Origin: an uncultured Candidatus Saccharibacteria bacterium
GTDB lineage: Bacteria; Patescibacteriota; Minisyncoccia; Phycocordibacterales; UBA2100
Assembly: GCA_964462785.1 (NCBI GenBank)
Contig: CAYWZA010000003.1
Location: 1-64,000 of the forward strand
DNA length: 64,000 bases
Reading direction: 5' to 3'
Below the pieces are notes generated by a model. It made no database searches and was not told the origin of the DNA. It worked only from the letters and a program-made list of their open reading frames with translations. A program made the position numbers and the translations under genes. Below are positions 35,808-57,248 of this stretch, in pieces. The first letter of the stretch is position 1; every line of letters begins with the position of its first letter.

Positions 35808-37583
35808 TTACCCAGTCCAGTTAAATAACAAGATCGAAAAATCCGCCAAATTCACCTTGCCATCTCCACTGAAATCAGCTCCGAGATCGTTCGTGCCCCA
35901 TGAGGACAACATAATTGAGAAGTCAACGAGGTTAACCTTTTGATCACCATTGATGTCGGTTTTGAGAGATGACGCGCTGCGTGCCGCAGATTCCCCAACA
36001 CCGATGAATGTCGGTCCGCTCAATTCGCTTTGCAATTGACTGCTGATAACTGTTCGTGCACGTATGTCGTATGTACCACGTGAGAAATCCTTCCCGTTCA
36101 CGGCAATGACCCAGCTGCCATCCGGCACCTGTGCCCCTCGCCCCTTTGAGGCGGTGGCGGTGAATTTCTTCGCTTCCGCCAAACTACTGCCCTGTCGTCG
36201 TATGAACACCTCGACAGTACTCCCCGGAACACTCTCCCCGACGATATCGAATGATTCTCCGACAGCAAGTGCTGTCTTGCTTGGCGCAAACGTCGGGGCG
36301 AGCACCACATTCGAAATGCTGTTACTCGTACCCGCAGCAATGGCAAGAGTTGAAGAAAACGACGCTGATCGTCGTTTACGCACATCGTCGGCATAGAGCA
36401 TAAATGTATACGTGCCACGCTCTATACTCGGCAATATTGCCTTAAAATTTCCGTCTATGCCTGCCTGTGTGGTCATTTGTATCTTGCCATCTCTCAAAAT
36501 GGTGACGGTGCTGAGTGGCGAGGACCACCCTGACACATTGACGGTAGATAGGTGGAGCAACGAACTCCCGCCCCGAAAGGTGCCAGCGCCACCCGGTCCG
36601 GCACTCGGAAGTGTTACCGAAGAATCAAATTCGGGTGTGGGATTTAACGTAAAAGTAATTGCGTAGTCAGTAGTATTTTTTGTCTGATCAACGGTAATGC
36701 ATCGCACGTAGTAGTTGTAGGTCGTGTTGTTTTGATGGTTGTCGATTGTCTTATGGTGAATGGTTGATGACGAATTGCCAACCGTAAAGGTATTCGTCAT
36801 CGAATCGTAGTCGACGCCGGTTGTCGTCGCGTAACGACACGTGGCTGTATTATCTGTATCGAGAGCAATTTCAATTGAGGGGTGATTGGCTTCGACAGCG
36901 CCGGACGGGCGCCCGTTGGAGCGTACCGGCGCAGTCGATACGATTGTTCCTGTTACGGTCACCTGGCTAATGATTGCAATCATGGCGGTTGCGGTATCTA
37001 TGGTGGCATCCAATTGATCTTTAGTCGCAAGCGCAATGCGATATGAACCAGTCGAAGCGGTGTTCGTAATGTTTTGATCCCCCGCGACTCCCGCTGTCGC
37101 AATAGTCCCCAGCTGTATTTCTACGACACTGCCCGCCCCAATGCCCGTAGTTGCATTGAGCGTGATGGTGATGGATCCGCTGCTGCCTGTCACCACAGCG
37201 ACCCCGTCGTTTGCTGCGCTAGCGCTCGCGGCGAGTGAGCGATCAGAGGATGAGACAGCGAGATCGACATCGGTGTAGTCAAACGCGGATGGAATGGTGA
37301 GCGCACCTGCCGCGGGAGTGATGAGTATTTTCCCCGAAGCGGGAATGGCATTGGTGGCGGTAAATTGAATGGTGTGCATCGTACTGGTTGCTGGAGCTGA
37401 ATTGCCGATCGTATCGCTCACCATGGTGAGTGATGCGGCATGCGTGTATGGAGCCCATGCCAAAAAGCACGCCAGAGAAAAAAGCACGCAACACAATCGT
37501 GCGGTCATCATCATTACTATTATAAGCCTATTATTGATACGGGCTCCGCGCACCTTACCCACGTCGCCGTAAATCAACCGCAA
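35808..37583 (-). CDS. Secreted Ser/Thr/Ala-rich surface protein with a C-terminal dockerin-like domain
   Basis: Signal peptide; the likely start is an internal Met near 37514. C-terminal duplicated DxNxDxxVNxxD repeats (DINGDQKVNLVDFSIML...DFSGDGKVNLADFSILL). Confidence 0.6.
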   Translation of the reverse strand: MRLIYGDVGKVRGARINNRLIIVMMMTARLCCVLFSLACFLAWAPYTHAASLTMVSDTIGNSAPATSTMHTIQFTATNAIPASGKILITPAAGALTIPSAFDYTDVDLAVSSSDRSLAASASAANDGVAVVTGSSGSITITLNATTGIGAGSVVEIQLGTIATAGVAGDQNITNTASTGSYRIALATKDQLDATIDTATAMIAIISQVTVTGTIVSTAPVRSNGRPSGAVEANHPSIEIALDTDNTATCRYATTTGVDYDSMTNTFTVGNSSSTIHHKTIDNHQNNTTYNYYVRCITVDQTKNTTDYAITFTLNPTPEFDSSVTLPSAGPGGAGTFRGGSSLLHLSTVNVSGWSSPLSTVTILRDGKIQMTTQAGIDGNFKAILPSIERGTYTFMLYADDVRKRRSASFSSTLAIAAGTSNSISNVVLAPTFAPSKTALAVGESFDIVGESVPGSTVEVFIRRQGSSLAEAKKFTATASKGRGAQVPDGSWVIAVNGKDFSRGTYDIRARTVISSQLQSELSGPTFIGVGESAARSASSLKTDINGDQKVNLVDFSIMLSSWGTNDLGADFSGDGKVNLADFSILLFNWTG

Positions 37584-38010
37584 ATGTCGCGGCGCTCACA
37601 CTCGCGAATGGAGCGTAACCCCTACGCCAGTCGAGGTAGAAATTTGCCCCCACAAGTGCCGCGAGCACCACGCTCATGGCAAAGCTCGCGAGCGCCAACA
37701 TCTCCGCATTCCTATCTCCACCGGTCATACGTTCCTCAAATGCGCGGACAGCGTCCTCCCTGGCACGAAGTTCTTCTTCTTTTGCTAACAGCTCTACTGC
37801 GGCTGTGTTGTAAGGGTTTGGATCAACCGATGCCGCTACCCCCACCACCGCACTCGCCACCATCGTGTGCGCGGTGCGCGCCAGCGTTTGTGGAGAAACA
37901 CTGGTCACTGCATATCCGAATAGCAATACAGACGCGATAATGCCCACTGCCTGAAAACTATGGCGCCGCGAGACATGTGCTTGTGTGTAGGATCTATGCA
38001 TCGTAATCAA
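37555..38010 (-). CDS. Membrane protein with a coiled-coil segment (hypothetical)
   Basis: Two to three hydrophobic helices. Confidence 0.4.
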   Translation of the reverse strand: MITMHRSYTQAHVSRRHSFQAVGIIASVLLFGYAVTSVSPQTLARTAHTMVASAVVGVAASVDPNPYNTAAVELLAKEEELRAREDAVRAFEERMTGGDRNAEMLALASFAMSVVLAALVGANFYLDWRRGYAPFASVSAATFAVDLRRRG

Positions 38011-38018
38011 TGCGAATA

Positions 38019-39095
38019 CTAAGCAAACAAAAGGAACAGAACGACGAGCAGCGCAACGCAGCAGATAAAGACTGAGAGTGCCACAAATACCAAGCGTGAC
38101 GATGAGCGCTGATATTTCTTTGCGTAGTATTCAGCTCCCCTATCTCCTGGAGTGACCCCCATGTCGGCAAGCTTCTTGCGGATATACAACTTGACTGACA
38201 TGTAGAGCGCGAGCACAACAAGGAGCAATGAACCGAGGGTAATTGCGATCAATTTGAGCGGCAGCACCCAAAACGACGTGCTTGCCGAAATGGTTTTACG
38301 AACTTGATCACCATAGACCAAGCTTGCAATGGCCTGATACCTTCCGAAAGCAAGATCTTCTGATTCCCAGGTGGCAGTATAGGTTCTTTCAGCGGCAGGA
38401 AATACCGCTCCTGCAGTTGCATTTACTTCGATCGAAGCGACCTGCTTCCCAAACATGTCGGTAATTTCAATAAGTCCGTGTGGTCGTAGGAGCACATTCC
38501 CGAGATTTTCAGTTCGCATATTGAATGTGACTGGCGGTGCGCCATACACAAGTCGTTCGGTGGAAAGCTCGCGCAAGCGCATCTCCTCCACTGCATCACC
38601 CGAAATTCTCAAACTTATGATATTACCCACACGAAATCCGACTCCCGCACCACTTTGTGTGAGTTTTGGCGGATCGCTGGCGAGCAGTATGCTGCCGAAA
38701 TGGGATCCTGGAGTCGCATCCGCGGGCACGCGCACAGTGAAAGGAACGGTGGTCTCTTCCCCCGGTTTGAGATTCAATGACCGCTTATTGAATGATATCC
38801 ATGTGCTCATCTCGTAGGGCGTCTTCTCGCCTTCTTCAGAAAATATTGGTCGTCCACCATCGTCAGCGCCCTTAATATCCTGCGCGACCAGATACAATAG
38901 CTTCTCAGTGTCTGCGATATTCCTCACCTGAATCGAGTAGTGGTACGTGCCGCCTGCATCGACTTGATCTTCAATAATCGCCGGTCGTATATCGACACCC
39001 TCACCCTGCTGTGCAAACACAAGCGATGCACTCAAGATCAGAGCAGACAAAAAAATAAAACCCAGTGCACATATCCTGTAAAGGCTTGTGGTCAT
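38019..39095 (-). CDS. Cell-surface protein, signal peptide + beta-sandwich + C-terminal TM anchor (DUF916/DUF3324-like), paralog A
   Basis: Signal peptide; VPFTVRVPADATPGSHFGSILL block shared with paralogs B-D; C-terminal TM followed by a basic tail. Confidence 0.5.
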   Translation of the reverse strand: MTTSLYRICALGFIFLSALILSASLVFAQQGEGVDIRPAIIEDQVDAGGTYHYSIQVRNIADTEKLLYLVAQDIKGADDGGRPIFSEEGEKTPYEMSTWISFNKRSLNLKPGEETTVPFTVRVPADATPGSHFGSILLASDPPKLTQSGAGVGFRVGNIISLRISGDAVEEMRLRELSTERLVYGAPPVTFNMRTENLGNVLLRPHGLIEITDMFGKQVASIEVNATAGAVFPAAERTYTATWESEDLAFGRYQAIASLVYGDQVRKTISASTSFWVLPLKLIAITLGSLLLVVLALYMSVKLYIRKKLADMGVTPGDRGAEYYAKKYQRSSSRLVFVALSVFICCVALLVVLFLLFA

Positions 39096-39131
39096 ATAAA
39101 AACGATAATCTAATAGGTATTTGCACTATAC

Positions 39132-39330: not shown

Positions 39331-39356
39331 TGAACCTGTTTCATGCTAAGACCGCT

Positions 39357-40547
39357 TTAGAAGACCGGCGTTGCAACGTAGGTGAGTGTTGCGGTGTAAT
39401 CATCGCCCGCTTCCTGGAAGGCGGTGGTCTGGATTGCATACGCAACTGTTGTCGAACCGATATTGGCAGTGGTGCCGTTTGCCGGTCCCGTGTGGCTGAA
39501 GACTGCGCGAGTTGATGTTGAGAAGTTACCGGCATACCGAGTATCGGAAGTTCCAAATTCATTGGCGTTGATATCGTCATCGCTGGTGAGACCCCAATGA
39601 CCGTAGGTATTCACGCTACCGAAAGTACCTGTTGGTGCCGTCCACGCTGACGGCGTTGTTGTGCCGTTGCCATCAGCGAACACATCAATGGTGTCGCCGT
39701 TCGATGACGTAAGTGTCTGGTCTGCCTTTACGGTCACGGTAAAGCCGTTGGATGCGTTGGTTGTGACGTTAAGGCGCTGACCCACGACTTTCGGCACACC
39801 TGAGGTAAGTGACCCGAATGGTAAGGTCTGCGCGGAGCCTGATGTATCAACCGATGTAGTCGTACCGTTGATACCCACACCTGACGGCAAACCAGCAATC
39901 GCAAAACTGAATGTCGTATCAACAGATGCCGTTACGACAACGTCATCGATGATTGCGACCTGGACATCGATTGTGTCTTTGTCGGTGCCCTGACCCTGGT
40001 CTCTCGATGAGATGTGAATGTCATAGGAGCCAGCAACACTCGGGTTGGTGATTGGGCCGCTGGTAGACGCGATGAAGAATGATACCCCCGCCGTCGAGGT
40101 TGCAATGAAGTTGTTAGCACACAGCGAAAGTGTGAGGAGTTCTGTGGTCGTGGAGACAAGAACTTTATTTGTCGCCGCGCCGCCGAGTGTACAGTTTGAA
40201 ACGACGGTGATGCTCGATGTCGCGCTAAAATCTTCTGCACCTAATTGACCGATTTCGAAACTGTTGCCGGATGGATCGAAATCGAATGCGATGGTGCCCG
40301 TAGCAGTACCACCCGCATTGGTGCTGATTCGACTGGGAACACTGAAGGTGAATGTGTGACCGGAAACCACGGACAAATCAGAATCAGTGAGCGTGTCGCT
40401 AGCATCATAGAAGGATGCCGCCTGGCTGCGATTGAGCATACTTGGTGCACCGGTCGCCCAGAAGAGAATTGAGAGCATGAGAATTGCTGCGAGCTTGCTT
40501 GAGCGTAGCGCGCGGAGCGATACTGTTAGTGCACCAAGTGGATTCAT
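39357..40547 (-). CDS. Secreted WxL-like surface protein 1
   Basis: Signal peptide, Ser/Thr-rich, internal YGHWGLTSDD (W-x-L-like) and C-terminal YTATLTYVATPVF resembling the WxL-domain terminus. Confidence 0.4.
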   Translation of the reverse strand: MNPLGALTVSLRALRSSKLAAILMLSILFWATGAPSMLNRSQAASFYDASDTLTDSDLSVVSGHTFTFSVPSRISTNAGGTATGTIAFDFDPSGNSFEIGQLGAEDFSATSSITVVSNCTLGGAATNKVLVSTTTELLTLSLCANNFIATSTAGVSFFIASTSGPITNPSVAGSYDIHISSRDQGQGTDKDTIDVQVAIIDDVVVTASVDTTFSFAIAGLPSGVGINGTTTSVDTSGSAQTLPFGSLTSGVPKVVGQRLNVTTNASNGFTVTVKADQTLTSSNGDTIDVFADGNGTTTPSAWTAPTGTFGSVNTYGHWGLTSDDDINANEFGTSDTRYAGNFSTSTRAVFSHTGPANGTTANIGSTTVAYAIQTTAFQEAGDDYTATLTYVATPVF

Positions 40548-40729: not shown

Positions 40730-42046
40730 TCACTGCTGATTTTGAGCATTTAGTTTTGCAACATCTTCGTCCGTAATCGGTCTTTCTTCTTGAATTTTCA
40801 CCTCCTTGATTTCAAAGTGCCGCTCGGGCGTAAGCACGCTGCCGAGAAACCACTGTATGCCATATAGAGCTGCACCTACGACTCCGAGAAATAGAAAGAA
40901 TGCGTAATATTTCTTTACAAACATGCCGCCGGTCATCTGCCGCTCGGTCGTAGATGCTCCACTGCCCACCGATGGTTGCTGTTTGGCAACACTGCGTAAG
41001 TCCACTACCCCCTCGCGCAGTGGCTGCATAAACACTGACGCGTACCCTGCCGACATCTTGCTGTGTTCGCCTATGCCTGCGTATTGCCGTTCGAGGACAA
41101 GCGCACGCCTGATGTAGCGCCTGATAAACCACACGATCAGGAGTACGAAGAACGCAATGCTCCCAATCGTGACCGCAACCGGCACGACAGGAACAATCCA
41201 GAAATAGGTTTTAGACGATATATTTTGCCTGCCATTTTCTCCGAACGTCAGTGTCACTTCTGCGCTATAGCGCCCGATATCGAAAATATCCTGCTCACCC
41301 TCCCAAGAAAATTGAAATTTTCTCGTACTCTCGGGAAGCACATTTCCAAAATTGCTCTGTTGATTGATGAGCACCTTGCCGCGCTCCTTTCCCCACATAT
41401 TAAAGAGCGTGATATATCCTTGCGGTTGCAAGTGCGCGTTGCCGGTATTTTCAAAACGCAAAATAAAATCAGCCTGCGGCTCTTGATAGAGTGTCTGCGT
41501 CGTCCTGAATTCCCGAATCCGCGCGCTTTCATACACATCCCCTTTCACCCGCACAAATAAGAGCGATGTGACGAAACTTGAAATGCGCATCGCCGCTCCG
41601 GCCTCGACTGTCTCCGGCGGCTTGGTGCCGACAAGAATCGCTGCATAGTGCCCGCCCGGCGACGCATCAGCTGGAATATGCACCGTGAGAGGAATTTCCC
41701 CGCTCCTCCCCTTCGGAATCGTTATGGGATCTTTTGGAATCTCGATCCATCCGGCGAGTGTGTGCGCACGCGCATCGGCATCATCCGCTGTAAGCGGAAT
41801 GAAAGTGCCCTGCCCCGCCTCGCCTTCTGCTTTGAAGTTAACTACCTCTGCATAATAGGTAACATCGTACGTATTGCTGTTCACCACCTTGAGAGAACTG
41901 TTCCACGTCTCACCTGGAATAATGGAGAGTTGAAAAAGCGGCGGTGTGACAGTCACCGACAGGGTGTCCGGTGCAGCATGTGCTGAGAGAGGCACAGTGG
42001 CAGCGACACCGGCGAGAAAAGCGGCAACTTTGAGAAAAATGCTCAT
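40730..42046 (-). CDS. DUF916/DUF3324-like cell-surface protein, paralog B
   Basis: Signal peptide, IPLTVHIPADASPGGHYAAILVGTKPP block, C-terminal TM segment. Confidence 0.5.
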   Translation of the reverse strand: MSIFLKVAAFLAGVAATVPLSAHAAPDTLSVTVTPPLFQLSIIPGETWNSSLKVVNSNTYDVTYYAEVVNFKAEGEAGQGTFIPLTADDADARAHTLAGWIEIPKDPITIPKGRSGEIPLTVHIPADASPGGHYAAILVGTKPPETVEAGAAMRISSFVTSLLFVRVKGDVYESARIREFRTTQTLYQEPQADFILRFENTGNAHLQPQGYITLFNMWGKERGKVLINQQSNFGNVLPESTRKFQFSWEGEQDIFDIGRYSAEVTLTFGENGRQNISSKTYFWIVPVVPVAVTIGSIAFFVLLIVWFIRRYIRRALVLERQYAGIGEHSKMSAGYASVFMQPLREGVVDLRSVAKQQPSVGSGASTTERQMTGGMFVKKYYAFFLFLGVVGAALYGIQWFLGSVLTPERHFEIKEVKIQEERPITDEDVAKLNAQNQQ

Positions 42047-42050
42047 GGTC

Positions 42051-43538: not shown

Positions 43539-43558
43539 AAATAAAGTATACCGTTGAA

Positions 43559-48897: not shown

Positions 48898-49295
48898 ACG
48901 GCTTGTGATCGCAATTCCCATTTTTCGAGATTGTTGCGCTCTATTTTGTGATCCACACTGACCGCAAATATATATCCGAGCATGAGGAGAAATATCGCAA
49001 ACACGCCCACCGCAAACCACACCACAGCCGTATATACCGACGTCATTCCTTCGGCGGAAAACAGCCATGCCGTAAACGATGCTGACTCTTCCTTGGATCC
49101 ATCCTGCCTTTTCTTGTTCTTATCTATATATTCACGAATAGCGCTTTCGGTCGTCACCCACACTACATTTGAAAACACCTGCTTGCCCGACAGCTTCCCC
49201 GCCCTGATAAGCTGCCCAATATAATCAGCGCTGTATCCGGATATCTCGGATGCCTCCTTAAGCGATATATAGTCATTTTCCTTTGTCATAGCCAT
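48894..49295 (-). CDS. Membrane-tethered HTH DNA-binding protein (MerR/excisionase-type HTH plus C-terminal TM)
   Basis: N-terminal SLKEASEISGYSADYIGQLIRAGKL HTH and C-terminal hydrophobic helix VVWFAVGVFAIFLLMLGYIFAV. Confidence 0.5.
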   Translation of the reverse strand: MAMTKENDYISLKEASEISGYSADYIGQLIRAGKLSGKQVFSNVVWVTTESAIREYIDKNKKRQDGSKEESASFTAWLFSAEGMTSVYTAVVWFAVGVFAIFLLMLGYIFAVSVDHKIERNNLEKWELRSQAV

Positions 49296-50279: not shown

Positions 50280-51008
50280 ATGCGCAGACTGCTGCGGAAA
50301 CACGCCCGAAGAATCACCCCTGGGCACGGCATCATCATTGCTGTGTTTCTCATATCGAGTGTGCTGGTACTTGATCAATCGGGTACTCCTTCCCTCTCAT
50401 TTATTTCTGATCGTCCCTCATTTTCCATCGGTGAAGTCGGAAATGTTGCTGTGCACATTGAAACCCCTACCCCGATAAATGCGACCGGCATGATCATCAC
50501 CTATTCTTCGGAGCTCGTGCGTATCGTCGATATTGAAACGAAAGGGTCATTCATCGATTTGTGGACGCAAGAGCCTATTGTGCGCGCAGATGGTGAGATA
50601 CACCTGAGCGGCGGCACGCTCATCGCGGGCGGACTCACGGGCACAAGCACCGTGCTTGATATTGAAATTGAGGCGAAGCAGGCTGGCACTGCAGTATTTG
50701 CGTTTAAAAACTCGGAAATTATCGCAAGCGACGGCAGCGGCACGGCGCTCAAGCACACTGCAGATCCATTGAGCATCCAGATTGTTGAAAAAAGCGCTGC
50801 ACCTCAGAAGGGCGGAGGGGGAAGCAGCGCAACAGCAACACCCACCACTCCGATATTTGATCTTAACGCCGACGGCAGAGTCACCCTCGTCGACGTCTCG
50901 ATCCTTCTGGTGCATATGTTTGCTGCATACGATCGAGCATACGATTTTGATACCGATGGCTCCATCGGTCTCTCCGATCTCTCCGCTCTGTTGGCGCGTG
51001 TTCAATAG
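50280..51008 (+). CDS. Membrane-anchored protein with a cohesin-like domain and a C-terminal dockerin-like repeat pair (adaptor)
   Basis: N-terminal TM. Cohesin-like block (...GTAVFAFKNSEIIASDGSGTAL...). C-terminal FDLNADGRVTLVDVSILL...DFDTDGSIGLSDLSALL. Confidence 0.5.
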   Translation: MRRLLRKHARRITPGHGIIIAVFLISSVLVLDQSGTPSLSFISDRPSFSIGEVGNVAVHIETPTPINATGMIITYSSELVRIVDIETKGSFIDLWTQEPIVRADGEIHLSGGTLIAGGLTGTSTVLDIEIEAKQAGTAVFAFKNSEIIASDGSGTALKHTADPLSIQIVEKSAAPQKGGGGSSATATPTTPIFDLNADGRVTLVDVSILLVHMFAAYDRAYDFDTDGSIGLSDLSALLARVQ

Positions 51009-51145: not shown

Positions 51146-52132
51146 TCAAGACACACTATCCATACGATAGCGGTGCAGCATATAGGCGGCGCCAAATCCT
51201 GCGATGAAGAGCAGCACAAGAAACGGGATAAGTGCTGAGGCGACTCCTGCAATGGACGCAAGCGCGGCGGCTGCTCCTTCGGCACGAATATCAAATTTGA
51301 TGCGTTTGGACGGCTCACTTTCCACGCCACTTGCGTCAACTGCCTGCGCCCAGAGGCGGTAGACGCCCGTCTCAAGATCCATATCAGAGACAAACGTGAA
51401 CGATCCGTCTGCCGCGCTCGTCACGCGTGTCAACACTTTCGGCTCATCGCCCCGTGCGAGCCAGATGTGGATGGCTGCGTCGGGAATCGCTGTCCCACGG
51501 ACTATCACGCGTTCTCCAAGCGGGACCGTCCCAAATGGATACTCCACGAGTGCCGGGGCTGGCGGAAGTGCCGGCTGATCAATTGACGCCCCCAGGACCT
51601 GCCCCTCTTCCACTATCTCTTCTTCAGGTAGTGCTGCAATGACTTGTTTCGGCTCTATGCCATAGATACCTGAGCGCATTGCGGTGATGATATTCGACCC
51701 CTTGCCGTCTGCAGAGAGCAGCGCACCGGAGGTGAGGCGTGCGGTGCTCAACGTGGTTCGTAATGCACGGAACGTGATCGTCGCCAAGAGTCCGTCAGTA
51801 CCGGCATACTTGCTATTCGTCCAACCGGAGAATCGGATCGTGCCTTCTTCATTTGAAAATTTAGGCGGCGTAGGCCAGAGCGAGAGAATCGAGCCGTATG
51901 TCGATACGTCTTCGACAACGAGCTCGTTAGGATCGAATAGGATCTCGGCTTCGGCTGCATTGATCGCAGTATCGCCCGTATCGGCGAGCACCTGCACATC
52001 AAAAAAATCGCCCACCGCGTACGTCCCGCGCTCGGGTGACACGTAAAGAACCGCATCTGCCGCAGCTACAAACGGGAGCGACACACATAACGCGCTGAGA
52101 AAAAATGAGACGCGAACGACGGACCGGTTCAT
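51146..52132 (-). CDS. Cohesin-like domain protein with a C-terminal TM anchor
   Basis: Signal peptide, a cohesin-like region (...ILFDPNELVV...GLLATITFRAL...) and a C-terminal TM helix. Confidence 0.5.
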   Translation of the reverse strand: MNRSVVRVSFFLSALCVSLPFVAAADAVLYVSPERGTYAVGDFFDVQVLADTGDTAINAAEAEILFDPNELVVEDVSTYGSILSLWPTPPKFSNEEGTIRFSGWTNSKYAGTDGLLATITFRALRTTLSTARLTSGALLSADGKGSNIITAMRSGIYGIEPKQVIAALPEEEIVEEGQVLGASIDQPALPPAPALVEYPFGTVPLGERVIVRGTAIPDAAIHIWLARGDEPKVLTRVTSAADGSFTFVSDMDLETGVYRLWAQAVDASGVESEPSKRIKFDIRAEGAAAALASIAGVASALIPFLVLLFIAGFGAAYMLHRYRMDSVS

Positions 52133-53073
52133 GGTGTGGGCGGGTTCTCAACATGTGCAGCGCGCCTATGAAGACCCATACCAATAATGACCAAAAATAC
52201 CAGTAGCACAGCAACGAATGGCGCAAAATCCCAGAGTGTCCATTGACGCGGCGGCGCAGAGCCTTCTTTGTATATCCCCAACCGCTCATTCCCCGCCTTA
52301 TCTATCGCGCGAATGCGAATGTCGGAGAGTGTCTGATCGCGCAGCGCATACGGGCTCGTGATGGTTTTCCATGCGCCGTTTTCACGTATTTCAAAGTGAT
52401 CAATGCCACTTTGCTTATCCTGAGTTGCAAATACCGCATAGTAGCGACCGCTGAAAATGCCGCGCGTCGATTGCACTTCGATTTCAAACGCATCGGGTGA
52501 TGTCTCATCAGACTGCACCTCCGCTATCCAAGGATTCTCCGGCACCGTCGGCTGCGCGGTGGTCATGATGGTGGCACTTCCCGTCTTGATGGCAGCCTGC
52601 GTGCCCAAGCCGTCGTTTACGTATGCGCGTGACGCGTCGGTAATCACAATAGGGGCACTGTGAGCGTCGTCAATGACCATGAAAATGATTCTGCCGAGCG
52701 TGTTGCTGAGTGCAGGATCCCCGTGAATACGTCCGCAGTAGCCTCCCGGCACTCCGCCCGCAAAGGAAACAATTCCTTTTTCTATATCGATCTTCGGCTC
52801 CTCCGCCCACAGGGTGAGGATTGAATTGCCGCGGCTGAAATCCACTGCCTTGAGTACGTCGACGGGATACTGCACCGATACTTGCATCGCATTCAAACAC
52901 TCTTCTTCGTTATCAATACGCACACTCATGATGAAGGTATCCCCCACCCCATAGAGCGCCTCGGATGGATCAAGATACAGATACGCGGCGTGCGCAGAAA
53001 ACGGCGCGAACAATAACACGCATAGGAAAAAACTTCTGGCAAACCACTGCATGTTATTAGTATACATTGTCAT
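52129..53073 (-). CDS. Cohesin-like domain protein with a C-terminal TM anchor (paralog)
   Basis: Signal peptide, a cohesin-like region (...VSVQYPVDVLKAV...GRIIFMVI...) and a C-terminal TM helix. Confidence 0.5.
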   Translation of the reverse strand: MTMYTNNMQWFARSFFLCVLLFAPFSAHAAYLYLDPSEALYGVGDTFIMSVRIDNEEECLNAMQVSVQYPVDVLKAVDFSRGNSILTLWAEEPKIDIEKGIVSFAGGVPGGYCGRIHGDPALSNTLGRIIFMVIDDAHSAPIVITDASRAYVNDGLGTQAAIKTGSATIMTTAQPTVPENPWIAEVQSDETSPDAFEIEVQSTRGIFSGRYYAVFATQDKQSGIDHFEIRENGAWKTITSPYALRDQTLSDIRIRAIDKAGNERLGIYKEGSAPPRQWTLWDFAPFVAVLLVFLVIIGMGLHRRAAHVENPPTP

Positions 53074-53078
53074 ACGCT

Positions 53079-54206
53079 CTAGCCGGTCCAGTTAAAGAGG
53101 AGTATGGAGAAGTCTGCCAAATTCACTGTCCCATCAAGATTAAAGTCATGTTTGATATCCTTACCCCCCCAACTCAAAAGAAAGATCGAGAAGTCCACGA
53201 GATTGACGCGCTTGTCGCCATTCACATCGGCAGAGGAAGCACCTCCGGAGGCAACTCCGTCCCCGATAGTAAAGCTGACCGAGCGTCCGAATCCGCTCTT
53301 CACCGTATCACTCAACTCGAAGAGGGCTTTTGCGGAGTGCGCGCCCGCTGAAAGTGTGGATGTATCGAGACGAAGCGCCCATTTTCCCGAACCGTCCGCT
53401 TGTGCGTTGAGTATCGCCTCAGCTTGCGGGTTTATCTGCGCTTCTATACCTGCGTTTGGCACTGCATATCCCGACACGGTGAGATCATCACCAGGAGCAA
53501 CGGTACGACTGCTCACCGCGGTGGTGGGTGGAAGAAAAATATTTGCGACGGTGGTAACAGCGCTTTGTACAACCTCGAATACCACCGAGTTGATTGTCGA
53601 ATCCGCCCCCGCCGGATCTTTGGCCCACACGCCAAACGTCGCCGTCCCCGGCGTAATATCAGTCGTACTGAAAATAAAATCTGCCTGCGCATCCGCCTTT
53701 GCAGTCCCTTTGAGTTTTCCATCGAGCAGAATGTTGACGGTGCTGTTAGGATACGCCTTGCCGCGCAAAACTACCTTCGTCGCTATCTCAGAGAGGATGG
53801 AGCCGAGCGGCGCACCGGGCACAAACGGTGTGCTCCCCACCGCGGGTGCCCCACCACCACCTGGCGGCACCGGAGTGAGCGGCGTGCACATCACATCGCA
53901 CAGATCCCCTGCTTCATTGTCGCCATCGTCGCATTGCTCGCCAAATCGCACTTGCAACGTGCTGTCGCCGCAGTACGGACCCCAGCTGATACAATCTGCA
54001 GCGCAGATGCGACCTGTTGTCGACGAAGCATACGAGCCGACGTTGTTGCCTGTCCCTAAATCACATATCTCTGTGCCCGTCACCAAACCGTCACCGCATA
54101 CCGCAACGGTCACGAATGGTCGCATCGCAATTGCCTCGACGCGACCGGTGCTATTCCCAATGGCGATCAGTGAAAGCGCTATGAGAATGGACGCGATAAT
54201 CTGCAT
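53079..54206 (-). CDS. Secreted Cys-rich-repeat protein with a C-terminal dockerin-like domain
   Basis: Signal peptide, CGDGxVTGTEICD / CGDSTLQVRFGEQCDDGD Cys-rich repeats, a Pro/Gly linker, and C-terminal DVNGDKRVNLVDFSIFL...DFNLDGTVNLADFSILL. Confidence 0.55.
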   Translation of the reverse strand: MQIIASILIALSLIAIGNSTGRVEAIAMRPFVTVAVCGDGLVTGTEICDLGTGNNVGSYASSTTGRICAADCISWGPYCGDSTLQVRFGEQCDDGDNEAGDLCDVMCTPLTPVPPGGGGAPAVGSTPFVPGAPLGSILSEIATKVVLRGKAYPNSTVNILLDGKLKGTAKADAQADFIFSTTDITPGTATFGVWAKDPAGADSTINSVVFEVVQSAVTTVANIFLPPTTAVSSRTVAPGDDLTVSGYAVPNAGIEAQINPQAEAILNAQADGSGKWALRLDTSTLSAGAHSAKALFELSDTVKSGFGRSVSFTIGDGVASGGASSADVNGDKRVNLVDFSIFLLSWGGKDIKHDFNLDGTVNLADFSILLFNWTG

Positions 54207-54228
54207 GAAGGTATGTACATGAGTGGCG

Positions 54229-55239
54229 TTATAGAAGCTGCGTCGTCTTTGGGTAAACTCGCATGCGAGCGCGCCTACGCCTGCGCACGACCACAGCGCC
54301 GCCCATAGTGCCGACGAGCGCGACCGGCATACCCAGATAGCTCAGTGCTTTCAATTTGTCTTGGAGCGACAGACCGGAGAATCCATACCCCTCGTAGCCG
54401 GCAACAGTGCCCAGAGGATTGATACTCACGGTGATTTGGTTCTGCTGGGCGATCTCATCGCCTCTGTAGATGGTGTATTTCGCTGCGTATCGCCCCGGAG
54501 GGAGGCGGGTCGGCAATTCGGCTATCACTTCTTTTGTGCCGAAGGGCGAAATCCGCTCGATATCATTTGTATTTTCGATGGACTCAAGGAGTGTCTCCAT
54601 TTCGCTGTCATACATATCAAAGGTCACCTTGCTGGGACCATATTCCGTGTTGCCGGTGTTCTCAATTGTCATGAGGAACTTGATTTTCCCGGGGAAGAAG
54701 AGGCCCCAACGCGTACGCCCCTCTTCCAAGTCAAGCACGCCTATTTTGCGCACGCTGAAATCATAGATTTTGTCGACAACGGTCACATCCACATCGATCT
54801 GTGCGCCGAGTGCGATCGATACGCCGCCTGATGGTTGCGGCGAATTGGGTGATGTGCGGACACGAATCGCACCTTTGTATTGCTTATATTCGGCGTCATC
54901 GGGCACGCGCACGGTGACCACCATAGAGATCTGCGACGCACCCTTAGGGATGATAAATTCGCGCCCGCGATCAATAGAGAACCAGCTTTCGATGCCGGGG
55001 ATGTTCATCGTAACCTCCACCTTGAGATCCTCATTCGGATCGGAGCGCACCAAGCCGATGCGCTGCTCGTATACAGTACCGCGCGTGAGACGATCATTGA
55101 AAACATATGGCGGCGTGATGCCGAAACCAGCGTCCGCGACGGGCGCGAATGTGAAAAAAGCCGCTGCAGTGGCAATACCAAATAAAAAATGCCCGTACAA
55201 AATCCTCGTTCTCTCTGTGTTGTTAAGTAAAAATTGCAT
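54229..55239 (-). CDS. DUF916/DUF3324-like cell-surface protein, paralog D
   Basis: Signal peptide, two beta-sandwich-like regions, C-terminal TM plus an Arg-rich tail. Confidence 0.45.
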   Translation of the reverse strand: MQFLLNNTERTRILYGHFLFGIATAAAFFTFAPVADAGFGITPPYVFNDRLTRGTVYEQRIGLVRSDPNEDLKVEVTMNIPGIESWFSIDRGREFIIPKGASQISMVVTVRVPDDAEYKQYKGAIRVRTSPNSPQPSGGVSIALGAQIDVDVTVVDKIYDFSVRKIGVLDLEEGRTRWGLFFPGKIKFLMTIENTGNTEYGPSKVTFDMYDSEMETLLESIENTNDIERISPFGTKEVIAELPTRLPPGRYAAKYTIYRGDEIAQQNQITVSINPLGTVAGYEGYGFSGLSLQDKLKALSYLGMPVALVGTMGGAVVVRRRRRARMRVYPKTTQLL

Positions 55240-55304
55240 ATGCCATGCGGGTAGATTGTATTGTGTCTACTACCCTTTCCATTACGATTCCCACACTCAT
55301 CAGA

Positions 55305-57248
55305 TTACCAGAATGATGAGTTGCTTTTCTTTCCCGTAATGGTGTTTTGTCCGGTGTAGCTGCCGGCAAGCGTGATGGCACTCGGGATGTTGATACCCCA
55401 ATAGTTGTATTTCGTCTGCGGAGAGCTGGTGGAGGTTGTTTTCGGCACGCGAATTTCAAACGATAGTGGCGAGGTGGAGGCGGTAATGGAATATGCCTCG
55501 GCATGGGAGTATGCGACTGATGTGGTAGCAACCTTCTGATTGGAGATCGGGATTTCGCGTGTGGAATCAATACCCCCTGCATCGCACGAATCCGCTACGG
55601 TCCAGTCCGTACACATGGTGTCGCCGTAAATATCTTCATCGAGGCCGACGTTACCCTGCGCGATCAGATCAGACGTGGTGGAAACGGCGAGCTGCTGCCC
55701 CGGCTCCAAGCTGCCGTAGAGAACCGAAGTGCTGGAGACATTGAACGCAAGGAAACTTTCGACGTCTCTGCTGTCGTCGGTGGTATCTGCCGTGAGTGTA
55801 CTCGAAGCGGCGTTGTCATCCTGAATACGCACCGATGCTTCCCATCGCTCGGATGTCCATGGAGTGGAGGCGTCTGTCGGATCGGCAATATACCAGAGCG
55901 GGAATGTACACTCCCAATCCACTGTGGGATCGGAGGCGCCACTGCATGCGCCGGAGCCCGTAGTCGTCGCAGCACAGGTCATGCCCGAGGGAAAACCGGT
56001 AAATAGTGTCGAAGTAGCTGCGTAGCAGTTGTTGGCATTGTATTCAGATGCCGTATCGCATCCGGTTTGCCCAACACCACTGCGATACACGGCGGTCACT
56101 GCAAAGGTCGTCTCGGCGCCGCCTGAGGAATTGAGGCAGCTGTTGTTGTCGGTCGCGGTGAAATGGACACGATACGGGCCCGAGGTGGAGACGGCTTGCC
56201 AGAGCGTGAGGCTGCCACCGGGGACGGGGTTGCTGCTGCTGTAGCTGTCGATAAGGGTGATCGTTGATCCATCAACAGCCGGAGCGACGTTATTGACGGA
56301 GAAGGTTGAATTGGAGCCGTAAATGGTCGATGTCGCCACTAGCCCGTGGCTGTCTATCATATACACGTATGCATTGTAGGATTTATCCTGAAGCGGAGTG
56401 GTGAGTGTGGTCGTTGTCGCTGCGTTTGAGGCAGCGAACGTGGACGTCGCCCATGAGCCACCCGCGCCGCAATAGGTTCCGTTGAAGTCGTTTGATTTAC
56501 AGACGAATAACTGCACCGTATCTGGCGTGCCTGTCGCGTCATTATCATACGCTGTGGATGTCCATGTGACCGTGCCACCCGGATCCTCCGGTCCGTCGTT
56601 AACGACGGCGGAAAATACCGGCGGGTGGTTCATCACGAATGGCGAGAATCTGCCATACGTCGATCTCCCCTGCTTCATTGCTCCGTTGCATCGCGCAAGC
56701 GACGCGTTTGCGTCGCACACATACGCGTACCATGCGTTGCCCTCTTGATCGAATGGAAAATATTCAATAGTGGATGTCGATGCTGTGGCATCTGAAGCGC
56801 TCGTAGTTGTTGCCGAGCGTGCCCAGCGATTTGATACACCACCGCCACACTCAGGTGGTGCATTTGAAGTCGCGGTCGGGGTGCTGCTTGCTTTGCAAAT
56901 CAATAAGAAATAATCGTCGTTGTTGGAATCAGTCGCACGTGCAGTCCATGAGATCGTGGCCCCTGCGTTCGTGGGAGTTGAGGTGGATGACTCTGCGGTT
57001 TCCTCTGCGTCGAGCGTCCATTGCGGCGGTGTGTTGAGCACGGTGACAGAGGTCGATACGTCGTCCGCGCGTGCTTCCGGCACACGCACTTCGAACATCA
57101 CGAAAAATATGAGCGCGGCAAGCGCAGTGGTGCCGAGCACGGTGGCAACGGCAATTTTTCCTGAATTGAAATGTGCATCGGAAAAATCTTCTGTGTCAAA
57201 AAATGAGAGCCGTGCGCGCATAGCAAAAAAGACTTCCCTCAATCTCAT
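55305..57248 (-). CDS. Large Thr/Ser-rich surface protein with repeated Ig/cadherin-like modules (adhesin-like)
   Basis: N-terminal TM/signal anchor. Repeated module starts NTPPQWT / NHPPVFS / NNVAPAV. Confidence 0.5.
   Translation of the reverse strand: MRLREVFFAMRARLSFFDTEDFSDAHFNSGKIAVATVLGTTALAALIFFVMFEVRVPEARADDVSTSVTVLNTPPQWTLDAEETAESSTSTPTNAGATISWTARATDSNNDDYFLLICKASSTPTATSNAPPECGGGVSNRWARSATTTSASDATASTSTIEYFPFDQEGNAWYAYVCDANASLARCNGAMKQGRSTYGRFSPFVMNHPPVFSAVVNDGPEDPGGTVTWTSTAYDNDATGTPDTVQLFVCKSNDFNGTYCGAGGSWATSTFAASNAATTTTLTTPLQDKSYNAYVYMIDSHGLVATSTIYGSNSTFSVNNVAPAVDGSTITLIDSYSSSNPVPGGSLTLWQAVSTSGPYRVHFTATDNNSCLNSSGGAETTFAVTAVYRSGVGQTGCDTASEYNANNCYAATSTLFTGFPSGMTCAATTTGSGACSGASDPTVDWECTFPLWYIADPTDASTPWTSERWEASVRIQDDNAASSTLTADTTDDSRDVESFLAFNVSSTSVLYGSLEPGQQLAVSTTSDLIAQGNVGLDEDIYGDTMCTDWTVADSCDAGGIDSTREIPISNQKVATTSVAYSHAEAYSITASTSPLSFEIRVPKTTSTSSPQTKYNYWGINIPSAITLAGSYTGQNTITGKKSNSSFW

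What the first reader, a model, noticed from the sequence alone, without database searches (positions are those of the whole stretch)
35808..57248. Cellulosome-like cohesin-dockerin surface assembly combined with DUF916/WxL-like proteins in one ~21-kb locus
Seen in sequence:
- Two membrane-anchored proteins carry cohesin-like modules (51146-52132, 52129-53073).
- Two secreted proteins end in canonical duplicated dockerin repeats, DxNxDGxVNxxD (35808-37583, 53079-54206).
- One protein (50280-51008) carries both a cohesin-like module and a dockerin-like pair, the layout of an adaptor scaffoldin.
- Four paralogous signal-peptide + beta-sandwich + C-terminal-TM proteins are interleaved, together with two secreted proteins whose termini resemble WxL domains.
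- The locus also holds a giant Gly-rich protein, a thiol-disulfide oxidoreductase and a MacB-type exporter.
- Almost all of these genes lie on one strand with tight spacing.

Established knowledge: WxL + DUF916 + DUF3324 loci are described in Firmicutes (Csc clusters), and cohesin-dockerin pairing is described in cellulosomes.

Inference: I know of no described system with both in one operon-like locus of a small-genome, probably episymbiotic, bacterium. If real, this points to a modular, non-covalent cell-surface complex, perhaps for host attachment. No glycoside hydrolase cargo is visible.
Basis: partly seen in the sequence, partly recalled or inferred. Interest (0 to 1): 0.85.

Follow-up and report, generated by a model that had tools for sequence, protein, structure and literature searches.

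The report
CPR pilus operon with cohesin-dockerin tether
This locus of a tiny, probably symbiotic bacterium (Candidate Phyla Radiation, CPR) encodes a recently described kind of thin surface filament (a Pam-type pilus) with its membrane-bound assembly chaperones, and it also carries "plug-and-socket" (dockerin-cohesin) proteins that may clip the filament's base to the cell membrane, which would be a new job for a module best known from cellulose-degrading complexes.

Summary
The sequence observation holds. Pfam and profile comparisons confirm:
- three cohesin modules: 51146-52132, 52129-53073 and 50280-51008
- three dockerins: 35808-37583, 53079-54206 and 50280-51008
- four paralogous DUF916-like membrane proteins
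- a giant tail-fibre-like protein, a redoxin and a MacB/ABC pair

The interpretation needs changing. The core is not a cellulosome. It is a divergent Pam-type pilus cluster, a CPR system described in a 2026 preprint.
- The two "WxL-like" proteins are two-domain pilins. 33 of 36 orthologues match NCBIfam CPR_Pam_pilin_C, and none match Pfam WxL.
- The DUF916-like proteins are membrane-anchored PapD-like chaperones. Their best structural and sequence relative is Enterococcus faecium WxLIP.

Two results go beyond the preprint.
- The chaperones tie Pam pili to the WxL/WxLIP clusters of Firmicutes.
- Cohesin and dockerin genes are a conserved part of these operons in Paceibacteria: 26 of 30 fully flanked loci carry a dockerin gene and 19 of 30 carry both. 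At least 18 species have a fusion in which a pilin N-terminal domain plus linker strand is followed by a dockerin in place of the strand-accepting C-terminal domain.

I infer, without a test, that this fusion (35808-37583) ends the pilus and docks it onto the membrane cohesins.

Verdict: new variant of a known kind, interest about 0.65.

The parts
35200..35733 (-). Membrane-anchored thiol-disulfide oxidoreductase (Redoxin/TlpA-like), last gene of the pilus operon
   Evidence: Redoxin 65 bits and AhpC-TSA 56 bits. N-terminal TM segment. It sits at the operon end in 35 of 79 related loci. The pilin family has six invariant Cys.
35808..37583 (-). Pilin-NTD1 + linker strand + Ig-like stalk + C-terminal dockerin; no acceptor CTD. 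Proposed pilus terminator and tether subunit. Likely true start is 37514.
   Evidence: Dockerin_1 27.2 bits, above threshold. hhalign aligns residues 43-234 with residues 37-229 of pilin g39357 (99.6%, E 6e-25). No CTD hit. The NTD1-DOC architecture occurs in 18 other loci.
37555..38010 (-). Small protein with two TM segments, function unknown, conserved in the operon
   Evidence: TM segments. Present in 23 related loci at the same position.
38019..39095 (-). Membrane-anchored PapD-like / WxLIP-like chaperone, paralogue 1 (PamC/D-like)
   Evidence: WxLIP_PGBD 23.5 bits. AF2 model pLDDT 82: two beta-sandwich domains plus C-terminal helices. Foldseek top hits are E. faecium WxLIP 9i25_C and 9i1y (E 1e-12), then CsuC, Caf1M, CfaA, FimC and PapD. 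The family profile hits EfmWxLIP1 at E 1.6e-5.
39357..40547 (-). Pilin, NTD1-linker-CTD type
   Evidence: The CTD is homologous to the g43559 CTD (hhalign 99.8%, E 4e-29). Signal peptide present. The NTD1-CTD architecture occurs in 31 loci.
40730..42046 (-). Chaperone paralogue 2 (WxLIP/PamC/D-like) with C-terminal TM
   Evidence: blastp to g38019 E 4e-52. WxLIP_PGBD 19.5 bits. TM segments.
42051..43538 (-). Chaperone paralogue 3 with C-terminal TM and a Pro-rich tail
   Evidence: blastp to g38019 E 2e-30. WxLIP_PGBD 17.3 bits.
43559..44878 (-). Pilin, NTD2-linker-CTD type, with three conserved Cys pairs
44881..45345 (-). Small single-TM protein, function unknown, conserved between the giant protein and the pilin
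   Evidence: TM at residues 37-55. Present in 24 loci.
45352..49068 (-). Giant tail-fibre-like, Gly-rich surface protein. Likely start is 48921.
   Evidence: Gly_rich_2 and Bact_surface_Ig-like. phrog_863 tail fiber assembly E 2e-32 and phrog_6202 tail fiber protein E 6e-9. Bdello_MAT_N is weak. The preprint reports a tail-fibre-like gene at the centre of pam neighbourhoods.
48894..49295 (-). HTH + C-terminal TM protein, directly upstream of the giant gene; possible membrane-bound regulator
   Evidence: HTH_17 is weak at 19.4 bits. TM at residues 94-112. Present in 22 loci.
49378..50241 (+). N-terminally anchored protein of unknown function, paired with the cohesin-dockerin gene
   Evidence: No family hit. 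Syntenic in L002, L012, L017, L026 and L055.
50280..51008 (+). N-terminal TM/signal + cohesin + Gly linker + dockerin (adaptor layout)
   Evidence: Cohesin at residues 37-171 (hhalign 99.5% to the g51146 family). Dockerin at residues 189-239 (97.9% to the g35808 dockerin). Dockerin_1 18.7 bits. The COH-DOC architecture, at 241-288 aa, occurs in 24 loci.
51146..52132 (-). Signal peptide + cohesin + Big_13 Ig-like domain + C-terminal TM anchor
   Evidence: Cohesin 35.5 bits, above threshold; Big_13 22.6 bits. TM at residues 294-312. Most orthologues carry PF00963.
52129..53073 (-). Signal peptide + cohesin + OmpL47-type beta domain + C-terminal TM anchor
   Evidence: hhalign 99.8% to the g51146 cohesin. 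barrel_OmpL47 33 bits. TM at residues 283-301.
53079..54206 (-). Secreted Cys-rich (DUF4215) head + Big_6 stalk + dockerin; candidate docked adhesin
   Evidence: Big_6 31.6 bits, DUF4215 25.9 bits, Dockerin_1 24.7 bits. myxo_disulf_rpt and Ca_tandemer. Shares a 250-aa stalk plus dockerin with g35808 (E 2e-36).
54229..55239 (-). Chaperone paralogue 4, the most divergent
   Evidence: hmmsearch with the A2 family profile (which includes this sequence) E 2e-57. blastp to g40730 E 4e-5. The C-terminus is a hydrophobic segment followed by RRRRR.
55305..57248 (-). Large secreted protein with repeated Ig-like N-terminal units and a conserved C-terminal module; possible third pilin-like or tip adhesin subunit (unproven)
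   Evidence: 600 relatives; the conserved module is always C-terminal, including in proteins of 2,000-3,000 aa. hhalign against the pilin CTD is colinear but not significant (probability 6%). It is immediately followed by a chaperone paralogue.
57657..60239 (-). MacB/FtsX permease (57657-58865) and ABC ATPase (58872-60239), adjacent; role in the system unknown
   Evidence: FtsX, MacB_PCD and ABC_tran. They hold the same position in two relatives.

Best explanation
Window 35.2-57.2 kb is the surface-filament locus of a Paceibacteria (Parcubacteria/Kaiserbacteria-like) CPR bacterium. It is a divergent Pam-type pilus system.

Shown or well supported:
- Two secreted two-domain pilins (g39357 and g43559). 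[quoted passage not shown]
- Four paralogous two-domain, PapD-like chaperones held in the membrane by C-terminal helices. These are homologous to the WxLIP (DUF916) proteins of Firmicutes WxL clusters.
- A tail-fibre-like giant protein and a membrane thiol-disulfide oxidoreductase that travel with them.
- Cohesin- and dockerin-bearing proteins that are a conserved, integral part of this operon family.

Inferred:
- The chaperones cap the open C-terminal domain of each pilin after Sec export. Subunits then polymerise by donor-strand exchange, as proposed for PamA/B.
- g35808 has the pilin N-terminal domain and linker (donor) strand but a dockerin in place of the strand-accepting domain. It can therefore add to the cell-proximal end but cannot be extended.
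- g35808 would thus terminate the filament. Its dockerin would plug, in a Ca2+-dependent way, into the cohesins of the membrane-anchored g51146 and g52129, directly or through the cohesin-dockerin adaptor g50280. That tethers the pilus non-covalently to the membrane.
- Functionally this is a split version of the PamR tether.
- g53079 (Cys-rich head plus dockerin) would be displayed on the same sockets as an adhesin.
For: Pilins:
- The g43559 C-terminus matches NCBIfam CPR_Pam_pilin_C end to end. 33 of 36 orthologues match it and 7 also match the PamT model.
- g39357 shares that domain (hhalign 99.8%).

Chaperones:
- AF2 model with pLDDT 82.
- Foldseek top hits are WxLIP 9i25_C and 9i1y (E 1e-12), followed by about 30 chaperone-usher chaperones.
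- The family profile's only significant PDB hit is EfmWxLIP1 (E 1.6e-5).
- 35 of 37 members hit PF06030. NCBI names some orthologues 'DUF916 domain-containing protein [Minisyncoccia]'.
- C-terminal TM helices are present.

System definition and neighbours:
- The Pam system, its membrane-anchored PamC/D chaperones, the PamR tether, the paired cysteines and the tail-fibre-like neighbour are described in the preprint.
- g45352 is tail-fibre-like.

Cohesin-dockerin linkage:
- Synteny is conserved in GCA_022842645.1 and JGI 3300043331.
- Of 30 related loci with full 10-kb flanks, 26 carry a dockerin gene and 19 carry both cohesin and dockerin.
- In a Harrisonbacteria locus (L019), a minimal 281-aa protein (pilin NTD, Pro/Ala/Gly linker, dockerin) is followed directly by two cohesin-TM genes.
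- The NTD1-DOC fusion occurs in 18 loci, COH-DOC in 24 and COH-TM in 19.
- g35808 residues 43-234 align with g39357 residues 37-229, that is the NTD plus linker (99.6%), and g35808 has no CTD.
Against: - The window pilin scores 26.9 bits against a curated cutoff of 55 for the Pam model. NCBI's rule would not call it a Pam pilin.
- No direct comparison with the M. amalyticus PamA-T or PamR sequences was possible.
- Filament formation, donor-strand exchange and any cohesin-dockerin binding are untested here. No multimer modelling was available.
- Compact related loci (L054, L059, L064) keep COH-TM and COH-DOC but have no NTD1-DOC fusion within 10 kb. The tether role therefore cannot be the only role of the cohesin-dockerin genes.
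- No CTD-only tip pilin (PamT-like) was found in the window.
- ATP synthase genes, reported as typical neighbours, were not seen among the window ORFs scanned.
Confidence: 0.7

Rival explanations
1. WxL/Csc-type static surface complex. The DUF916-like membrane proteins are not assembly chaperones. They are permanent anchors (WxLIP) that hold the two secreted proteins as monomers on the cell surface, and the cohesin-dockerin pairs add further cargo. No filament is made. This is essentially the first reader's model.
For: - The closest solved relative of the membrane proteins is WxLIP. It was crystallised bound to a WxL protein (9i25).
- The published WxLIP model is stabilisation of WxL on the surface through a strand inserted by DUF916.
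Against: - The secreted proteins match the Pam pilin C-terminal model, not WxL.
- Pam pilins were seen as filaments by cryo-EM in another CPR bacterium.
- Pilins with 2-5 tandem N-terminal domains and one C-terminal domain (42 loci), and a donor-only NTD-dockerin protein, fit a polymer with defined ends better than a 1:1 anchor.
- Four chaperone paralogues for two or three clients is typical of assembly systems.
Confidence: 0.15
2. Two independent systems that merely sit side by side. A Pam-type pilus operon lies next to a separate, non-cellulosomal cohesin-dockerin surface-display module, with no physical connection between them.
For: - Non-cellulosomal cohesin and dockerin modules are widespread (my own knowledge: Peer et al. 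2009).
- In the window the cohesin genes lie in a second transcription unit (51-57 kb), separated from the pilin operon by a divergent gene pair.
- Compact loci lack the NTD1-DOC fusion.
Against: - The pilin N-terminal domain is covalently fused to a dockerin in at least 18 species.
- Cohesin and dockerin genes stay next to pilin and chaperone genes across several different gene orders (window, L019, L036, L054 types).
- The second unit has its own chaperone paralogue (g54229).
Confidence: 0.1
3. A true cellulosome-like polysaccharide-degrading complex.
For: Cohesin and dockerin modules are present, including an adaptor-like COH-DOC protein.
Against: - No dockerin is attached to a glycoside hydrolase, lyase, esterase or CBM.
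- Each cohesin protein carries a single cohesin.
- The cargo consists of pilin-like and Cys-rich or Ig-like domains.
Confidence: 0.02

Closest known systems
Pam pilus system of CPR bacteria (Ca. Mycosynbacter amalyticus; Troman et al., bioRxiv 10.64898/2026.03.03.709456)
   Same: - Secreted two-domain pilins with a C-terminal Pam-pilin domain.
- Several pilin paralogues in one operon.
- PapD-like chaperones with C-terminal TM helices.
- No usher or trans-envelope machine.
- Conserved cysteines.
- A tail-fibre-like neighbour gene.
- A CPR host.
   Different: - The lineage is Paceibacteria; the preprint stresses Saccharimonadia and Microgenomatia.
- Sequence similarity is below NCBIfam's cutoff.
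- There are four chaperone paralogues rather than two.
- A dedicated redoxin is present.
- No CTD-only tip pilin was found.
- Above all, there are cohesin-TM, cohesin-dockerin and pilin-NTD-dockerin genes that the preprint never mentions. These may replace or split the PamR tether.
WxL / Csc cell-surface clusters of Firmicutes (Siezen 2006; Hassan et al. 2023, PMC10599100; PDB 9I1Y and 9I25)
   Same: - One or more membrane-anchored two-Ig-domain proteins (WxLIP = DUF916 + DUF3324 + TM) are encoded next to small and large secreted partner proteins, whose fold they complete with an inserted strand.
- The chaperone family here is a sequence and structure homologue of WxLIP.
   Different: - The partner proteins do not match the WxL domain HMM.
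- DUF3324 is not detected by HMM.
- The host is a CPR bacterium, not a Firmicute.
- WxL clusters are described as peptidoglycan-bound complexes, not pili.
- Cohesin and dockerin are not described in them in the papers read here or to my knowledge.
Chaperone-usher pili (Pap, Fim, Csu, Caf1)
   Same: - The chaperone has a two-domain PapD-like fold.
- The implied logic is the same: donor-strand complementation, then exchange, with a donor-only terminator.
   Different: - There is no outer membrane and no usher.
- The chaperones are membrane-anchored.
- The pilins have an extra N-terminal domain and an internal rather than N-terminal donor strand (according to the preprint).
- No sequence-level homology is detectable.
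Cellulosomal and non-cellulosomal cohesin-dockerin systems
   Same: - Type-I-like dockerins with duplicated DxNxDGxVN Ca2+ loops.
- Cohesin beta-sandwich modules, membrane or cell anchoring of the cohesin partner, and an adaptor protein with both modules.
   Different: - There are no enzymes and no multi-cohesin scaffoldin.
- Anchoring is by TM helix rather than SLH or sortase.
- The cargo includes a pilin-like module, so the presumed purpose is pilus or adhesin tethering rather than enzyme assembly.

Membership tests
Pam pilus system (CPR) | [quoted passage not shown] | tested here: inconclusive
   g43559 scores 26.9 bits with E 4e-6 over the full model length, but the curated cutoff is 55. 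33 of 36 orthologues match at E<=0.01, best 8e-11. g39357 is linked only transitively (hhalign 99.8%).
Pam pilus system (CPR) | Two-domain pilin: N-terminal beta-sandwich, single linker strand, C-terminal domain | tested here: met
   The AF2 model of g43559 has beta domains at 85-265 and about 300-439, joined by strands 262-276. NTD-CTD architectures were recovered by domain HMMs in 71 simple and 42 multi-NTD pilins.
Pam pilus system (CPR) | PapD/FimC-like chaperones with a C-terminal TM helix (PamC/PamD) | tested here: met
   AF2 pLDDT 82, two beta-sandwich domains plus C-terminal helices. Foldseek hits CsuC, Caf1M, CfaA, FimC and PapD at E 1e-9 to 2e-7.
Pam pilus system (CPR) | Assembly by donor-strand exchange into helical filaments | not testable with these tools
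   This needs multimer modelling, cryo-EM or biochemistry.
Pam pilus system (CPR) | CTD-only tip pilin (PamT) | tested here: not met
   No window protein consists of a CTD alone. 7 of 36 g43559 orthologues weakly match the PamT model NF058579.
Pam pilus system (CPR) | PamR tether: two beta-sandwich domains + C-terminal TM + N-terminal donor strand (32.8 kDa) | tested here: inconclusive
   g51146 and g52129 are cohesin + second beta domain + TM proteins of 328 and 314 aa, similar in size and layout. No PamR sequence or model was available to compare.
Pam pilus system (CPR) | CPR host and a tail-fibre-like gene in the neighbourhood | tested here: met
   Orthologues are named Kaiserbacteria, Paceibacterota or Minisyncoccia. 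g45352 hits phrog_863 and phrog_6202 tail-fibre families.
WxL / Csc cluster (Firmicutes) | WxLIP N-terminal domain DUF916 (PF06030) | tested here: met
   The window paralogues score 23.5, 19.5 and 17.3 bits (GA 27.3). At family level, 35 of 37 members match, best 9e-12. The profile hits EfmWxLIP1 at E 1.6e-5, and the structure's top hit is WxLIP.
WxL / Csc cluster (Firmicutes) | WxLIP second domain DUF3324 (PF11797) | tested here: not met
   PF11797 is absent from the 12 families matched by the 37 members at E<=0.01; the second domain draws fn3_5 hits instead. The Foldseek alignment to WxLIP nevertheless spans about 260 columns, covering both domains.
WxL / Csc cluster (Firmicutes) | At least two WxL-domain proteins (PF13731) next to the WxLIP | tested here: not met
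Cellulosome / cohesin-dockerin system | Cohesin module (PF00963) | tested here: met
   g51146 scores 35.5 bits, above GA 24.1. g52129 and g50280 are linked by hhalign at 99.8% and 99.5%. Orthologues carry PF00963.
Cellulosome / cohesin-dockerin system | Dockerin module (PF00404) with duplicated Ca2+-binding loop and helix | tested here: met
   g35808 scores 27.2 bits and g53079 24.7 bits, both above GA 22.9. g50280 scores 18.7 bits and is linked by hhalign at 97.9%. The duplicated motifs DINGDQKVN/DFSGDGKVN and DVNGDKRVN/DFNLDGTVN are visible.
Cellulosome / cohesin-dockerin system | Dockerins borne by carbohydrate-active enzymes, and a multi-cohesin scaffoldin | tested here: not met
   No GH, PL, CE or CBM hit in any locus protein. 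Each protein has one cohesin.
Cellulosome / cohesin-dockerin system | Specific Ca2+-dependent cohesin-dockerin binding | not testable with these tools
   This needs AF-Multimer or recombinant binding assays.
Chaperone-usher pili | Outer-membrane usher | tested here: not met
   No usher-like protein among the locus ORFs. The chaperones are TM-anchored.

The most novel reading that the evidence does not exclude
In Paceibacteria, a donor-strand-exchange pilus is ended by a pilin-like subunit whose strand-accepting domain has been replaced by a dockerin. That dockerin plugs into cohesins on membrane-anchored proteins. Cohesin-dockerin pairing would then act as the non-covalent membrane tether, and an adhesin display socket, of a pilus. 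In addition, the CPR Pam pili and the enigmatic WxL/WxLIP clusters of Firmicutes would be two branches of one ancient monoderm 'membrane-anchored chaperone' fibre and adhesin assembly system.
Probability: 0.35. Interest if true: 0.8.

Novelty: new variant of a known kind. Interest (0 to 1): 0.65.

Why it matters
CPR/Patescibacteria make up a large share of bacterial diversity and appear to live attached to host cells. How they attach is largely unknown. If the reading here is right, three things follow.

1. Pam-type pili extend to the large Paceibacteria/Parcubacteria radiation. 172 GTDB species representatives encode relatives of this pilin.
2. Non-cellulosomal cohesin-dockerin pairs gain a concrete and testable role: clipping a pilus or adhesin to a membrane that has no sortase or outer-membrane usher. 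The function of these pairs has been an open question since they were catalogued.
3. The homology between the chaperones and WxLIP suggests that the WxL clusters of Enterococcus, Listeria and Lactobacillus, which are linked to virulence and adhesion, may work by the same chaperone and strand-complementation logic. That can be tested in tractable organisms.

Tried and rejected
- **PDB by sequence, pilins.** g43559, g39357 and a CTD profile found nothing meaningful. PamA/B structures are either not released or too distant.
- **Pfam WxL on pilin CTDs.** Negative. The 'WxL-like' label was rejected as a membership claim.
Not detected.
- **g55305 as a third pilin.** A search of the representative library gave 600 relatives, but hhalign of its C-terminal module against the pilin CTD reached only 6% probability. 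Left open.
- **Direct comparison with the M. amalyticus Pam proteins.** The sequences could not be obtained.
- **Literature searches.** Searches for Pam + WxL, WxL + donor strand, and dockerin + CPR or Parcubacteria found nothing relevant.
- **Promoter and terminator scan of the divergent region 48.8-51.3 kb.** Nothing above the shuffle controls.
- **Cellulosome reading.** Rejected for lack of any CAZyme cargo.

Full report
**1. What is in the sequence**

The region 35.2-60.2 kb holds about twenty tightly spaced genes. All but two are on the minus strand.

Cohesin and dockerin calls:
- Pfam finds Dockerin_1 above its gathering score in g35808 (35808-37583) and g53079 (53079-54206), and below it in g50280 (50280-51008).
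- Pfam finds Cohesin above threshold in g51146 (51146-52132) and weakly in g52129 (52129-53073).
- Family-level profile-profile comparison removes the doubt about the weak calls:
  - The g52129 N-terminal module is homologous to the g51146 cohesin (99.8%).
  - The g50280 module at residues 37-171 is homologous to the g51146 cohesin (99.5%).
  - The g50280 C-terminus is homologous to the g35808 dockerin (97.9%).

Other components:
- Four proteins (g38019, g40730, g42051, g54229) are paralogues with a signal peptide, two beta-rich domains and C-terminal hydrophobic helices.
- Two secreted proteins (g39357, g43559) share a C-terminal domain of about 175 aa that ends in a conserved ...Y(V/I)(A/V)TPVF.

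**2. Whose genome this is**

Orthologues of the pilin, the chaperone and the cohesin protein come from metagenome-assembled genomes labelled Candidatus Kaiserbacteria, Paceibacterota, Minisyncoccia, Adlerbacteria, Harrisonbacteria, Sungbacteria and similar names. This is the Parcubacteria/Paceibacteria part of the Candidate Phyla Radiation (CPR). The rest of the window holds housekeeping genes typical of such small genomes: RecG, FtsH, tmRNA, adenylate and guanylate kinases, and a VirD4-like coupling protein.

**3. The core is a Pam-type pilus cluster**

- NCBIfam gave the decisive lead. The C-terminal 147 residues of g43559 align end to end with NF058581, 'CPR_Pam_pilin_C, Pam pilus system pilin subunit' (E 4e-6, 26.9 bits, below the curated cutoff of 55).
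- At family level, 33 of 36 orthologues match this model (best 8e-11). Seven also match the PamT model.
- The system is described in a 2026 preprint (10.64898/2026.03.03.709456). According to it:
  - In Ca. Mycosynbacter amalyticus, cryo-EM showed filaments of PamA and PamB.
  - These are two-domain pilins that polymerise by donating the inter-domain linker strand to the open C-terminal domain of the neighbouring subunit.
  - PamC and PamD are PapD/FimC-like chaperones with C-terminal TM helices.
  - PamT is a tip pilin made of the C-terminal domain only.
  - PamR is a membrane tether that donates an N-terminal strand.
  - A tail-fibre-like gene sits at the centre of pam neighbourhoods.
- The window matches this anatomy:
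  - The AF2 model of g43559 has two beta domains joined by a strand (pLDDT 72).
  - g45352 is clearly tail-fibre-like (phrog_863, E 2e-32).
  - The operon ends with a membrane redoxin. This fits the six invariant cysteines of the pilin family and the paired cysteines reported for PamA/B.

**4. The 'DUF916-like' proteins are both PapD-like chaperones and WxLIP homologues**

- The AF2 model of g38019 (pLDDT 82) was searched against the PDB. The best hits are E. faecium WxLIP, alone (9I1Y) and bound to a long WxL protein (9I25), at E about 1e-12.
- These are followed by some thirty chaperone-usher chaperones, including CsuC, Caf1M, CfaA, FimC, PapD, SafB and DraB.
- A sequence profile of the family finds EfmWxLIP1 as its only significant PDB hit (E 1.6e-5).
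- 35 of 37 family members match Pfam WxLIP_PGBD/DUF916 (best 9e-12). NCBI already names some orthologues 'DUF916 domain-containing protein'.
- Hassan et al. (PMC10599100) describe WxLIP as DUF916 + DUF3324 + TM helix, and predict that a DUF916 hairpin strand inserts into the WxL domain. That is exactly the geometry of chaperone donor-strand complementation.
- The Pam preprint never mentions WxL, DUF916 or WxLIP.
- The link is one-sided. The pilin C-terminal domains do not match the WxL HMM or any PDB sequence. DUF3324 is not detected by HMM.
- I therefore claim homology for the chaperone/WxLIP component only.

**5. Cohesin and dockerin genes belong to the operon family**

- Two relatives keep the whole order: ABC, MacB, g55305-like, chaperone, DUF4215-dockerin, cohesin-TM, cohesin-TM, (divergent) cohesin-dockerin and unknown, HTH-TM, giant protein, small TM, pilin, chaperones.
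- A scan of GTDB species representatives found 172 genomes with relatives of the pilin, and 79 loci were fetched.
- The most frequent order is: giant, small TM, pilin NTD2-CTD, chaperone, chaperone, pilin NTD1-CTD, chaperone, 2-TM protein, NTD1-dockerin, redoxin.
- Among the 30 loci with full 10-kb flanks, 26 have a dockerin gene and 19 have both cohesin and dockerin genes within 10 kb of the pilin.
- The linkage survives rearrangement:
  - In a Harrisonbacteria genome (L019), a minimal NTD-dockerin gene is followed directly by two cohesin-TM genes.
  - In a compact form (L054, L059, L064), the order is cohesin-TM, a small gene, cohesin-dockerin, a large gene, a giant pilin of about 2,050 aa, two chaperones and the redoxin.
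- Domain HMMs built here give these architecture counts:

| Architecture | Loci |
|---|---|
| NTD2-CTD | 40 |
| NTD1-CTD | 31 |
| (NTD2)2-5-CTD | 42 |
| NTD1-DOC | 18 |
| COH-DOC | 24 |
| COH(-TM) | 19 |

**6. The key anatomical fact**

- g35808 is not just any dockerin protein. Its residues 43-234 are homologous to residues 37-229 of pilin g39357 (hhalign 99.6%, E 6e-25).
- That stretch runs from the signal-peptide cleavage region through the whole N-terminal domain and the strand that precedes the C-terminal domain.
- After this point g35808 has Ig-like stalk domains (shared with g53079) and a dockerin. It has no pilin C-terminal domain.
- The 281-aa L019 version is simply pilin NTD + strand + Pro/Ala/Gly linker + dockerin.

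**7. Proposed mechanism (inference)**

In the Pam model, each subunit's C-terminal groove receives the strand of the next, more cell-proximal subunit. A protein that can donate a strand but has no groove ends the filament at the cell side, which is the role assigned to PamR. On that basis:
- g35808 fits the terminator role, but it carries a dockerin instead of a TM helix.
- The TM helices sit on the cohesin proteins g51146 and g52129. These proteins (328 and 314 aa) are close in size to PamR (32.8 kDa).
- I propose that the pilus base is clipped to the membrane by dockerin-cohesin pairing, possibly through the COH-DOC adaptor g50280.
- The Cys-rich dockerin protein g53079 would be displayed on the same sockets.
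- g55305, a large secreted protein with a conserved C-terminal module and its own chaperone paralogue directly downstream, may be a further pilin-like or tip subunit. Its similarity to the pilin CTD is not significant.

Limits of the proposal:
- No binding or polymerisation was tested.
- The compact loci keep cohesin-dockerin genes without an NTD1-dockerin fusion nearby. Tethering of this particular subunit therefore cannot be the whole story.

**8. Comparison with known systems, and novelty**

- **Pam pilus:** the same kind of system, but a divergent branch in a different CPR class, below NCBIfam's naming cutoff, and with extra components.
- **WxL/Csc clusters:** the chaperone/WxLIP component is homologous. 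The WxL criterion is not met.
- **Cellulosome:** the modules are present, but the defining enzyme cargo and multi-cohesin scaffoldin are absent.
- **Chaperone-usher pili:** the chaperone fold and the logic are shared, but there is no usher.
- No paper in the held library connects cohesin or dockerin with CPR pili, or Pam with WxL.
- I rate this a new variant of a known kind.

**9. Confidence**

| Claim | Confidence |
|---|---|
| The locus is a Pam-like, WxLIP-related pilus or adhesin assembly cluster with conserved cohesin-dockerin genes | about 0.8 |
| The package stated as the best explanation, including donor-strand polymerisation | 0.7 |
| The specific terminator and tether mechanism | about 0.35-0.45 |

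Noticed in passing
window 690-3731 (-): A low-GC island (0.36-0.38 against about 0.52 elsewhere) encodes a TdeIII-type restriction endonuclease, an N6/N4 DNA methylase and a Peptidase_S24 (LexA-like) protein. It is probably a horizontally acquired restriction-modification module.
   Followed up: partly
window 48894-49295 (-): A small protein with an HTH_17-like N-terminus and a C-terminal TM helix lies directly upstream of, and overlaps, the maximal ORF of the giant tail-fibre-like gene. It is conserved at that position in 22 related loci and may be a membrane-tethered regulator of the locus.
   Followed up: partly
L054 5417-11650, L059 5483-11641, L064 4916-11107, L057, L065: In other Paceibacteria, the Pam-type pilin C-terminal domain sits at the end of proteins of about 2,050-2,470 aa that carry 4-5 tandem copies of the NTD2 domain. 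A single subunit is then itself a long fibre segment.
   Followed up: partly
L019 16349-19450: Harrisonbacteria locus: a minimal 281-aa protein (pilin NTD, Pro/Ala/Gly linker, dockerin) is immediately followed by two cohesin proteins with TM helices. One of them also has a cytoplasmic tail that looks like a coiled coil.
   Followed up: yes
window 43559-44878 (-), residues 20-80 of the protein: The mature N-terminus of pilin g43559 is a low-confidence Ser/Thr-rich stretch with three repeats of an (S/T)xNF(T) motif, conserved in the family consensus. It could be a glycosylation region or an extra donor strand.
   Followed up: no
window 34010-35180 (-): Two tandem, overlapping guanylate kinase paralogues lie next to adenylate kinase and methionine aminopeptidase. 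This is unusual redundancy for a reduced genome.
   Followed up: no
window 29801-32605 (-): A 934-aa VirD4/TraG-like coupling protein with DUF8128 may belong to the Patescibacteria type IV secretion or conjugation-like machinery.
   Followed up: no
window 9221-10765 (-): A secreted protein with two PKD domains and a PG_binding_1 domain; another candidate surface or cell-wall-interacting protein outside the locus.
   Followed up: no
window 57285-57629 (-): A 114-aa Arg/Pro-rich ORF lies between the MacB gene and g55305. It has no features of a real protein and is probably a spurious ORF in an intergenic region of about 400 bp.
   Followed up: no
record titles (e.g. L003, L005, L007): Many related contigs from TPA assemblies are titled 'uncultured Candidatus Saccharibacteria bacterium'. 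Their pilin operons are nevertheless 55-61% identical to the window pilin, like those of loci titled Kaiserbacteria or Paceibacterota. These labels look generic or wrong and should not be used for taxonomic counts.
   Followed up: no
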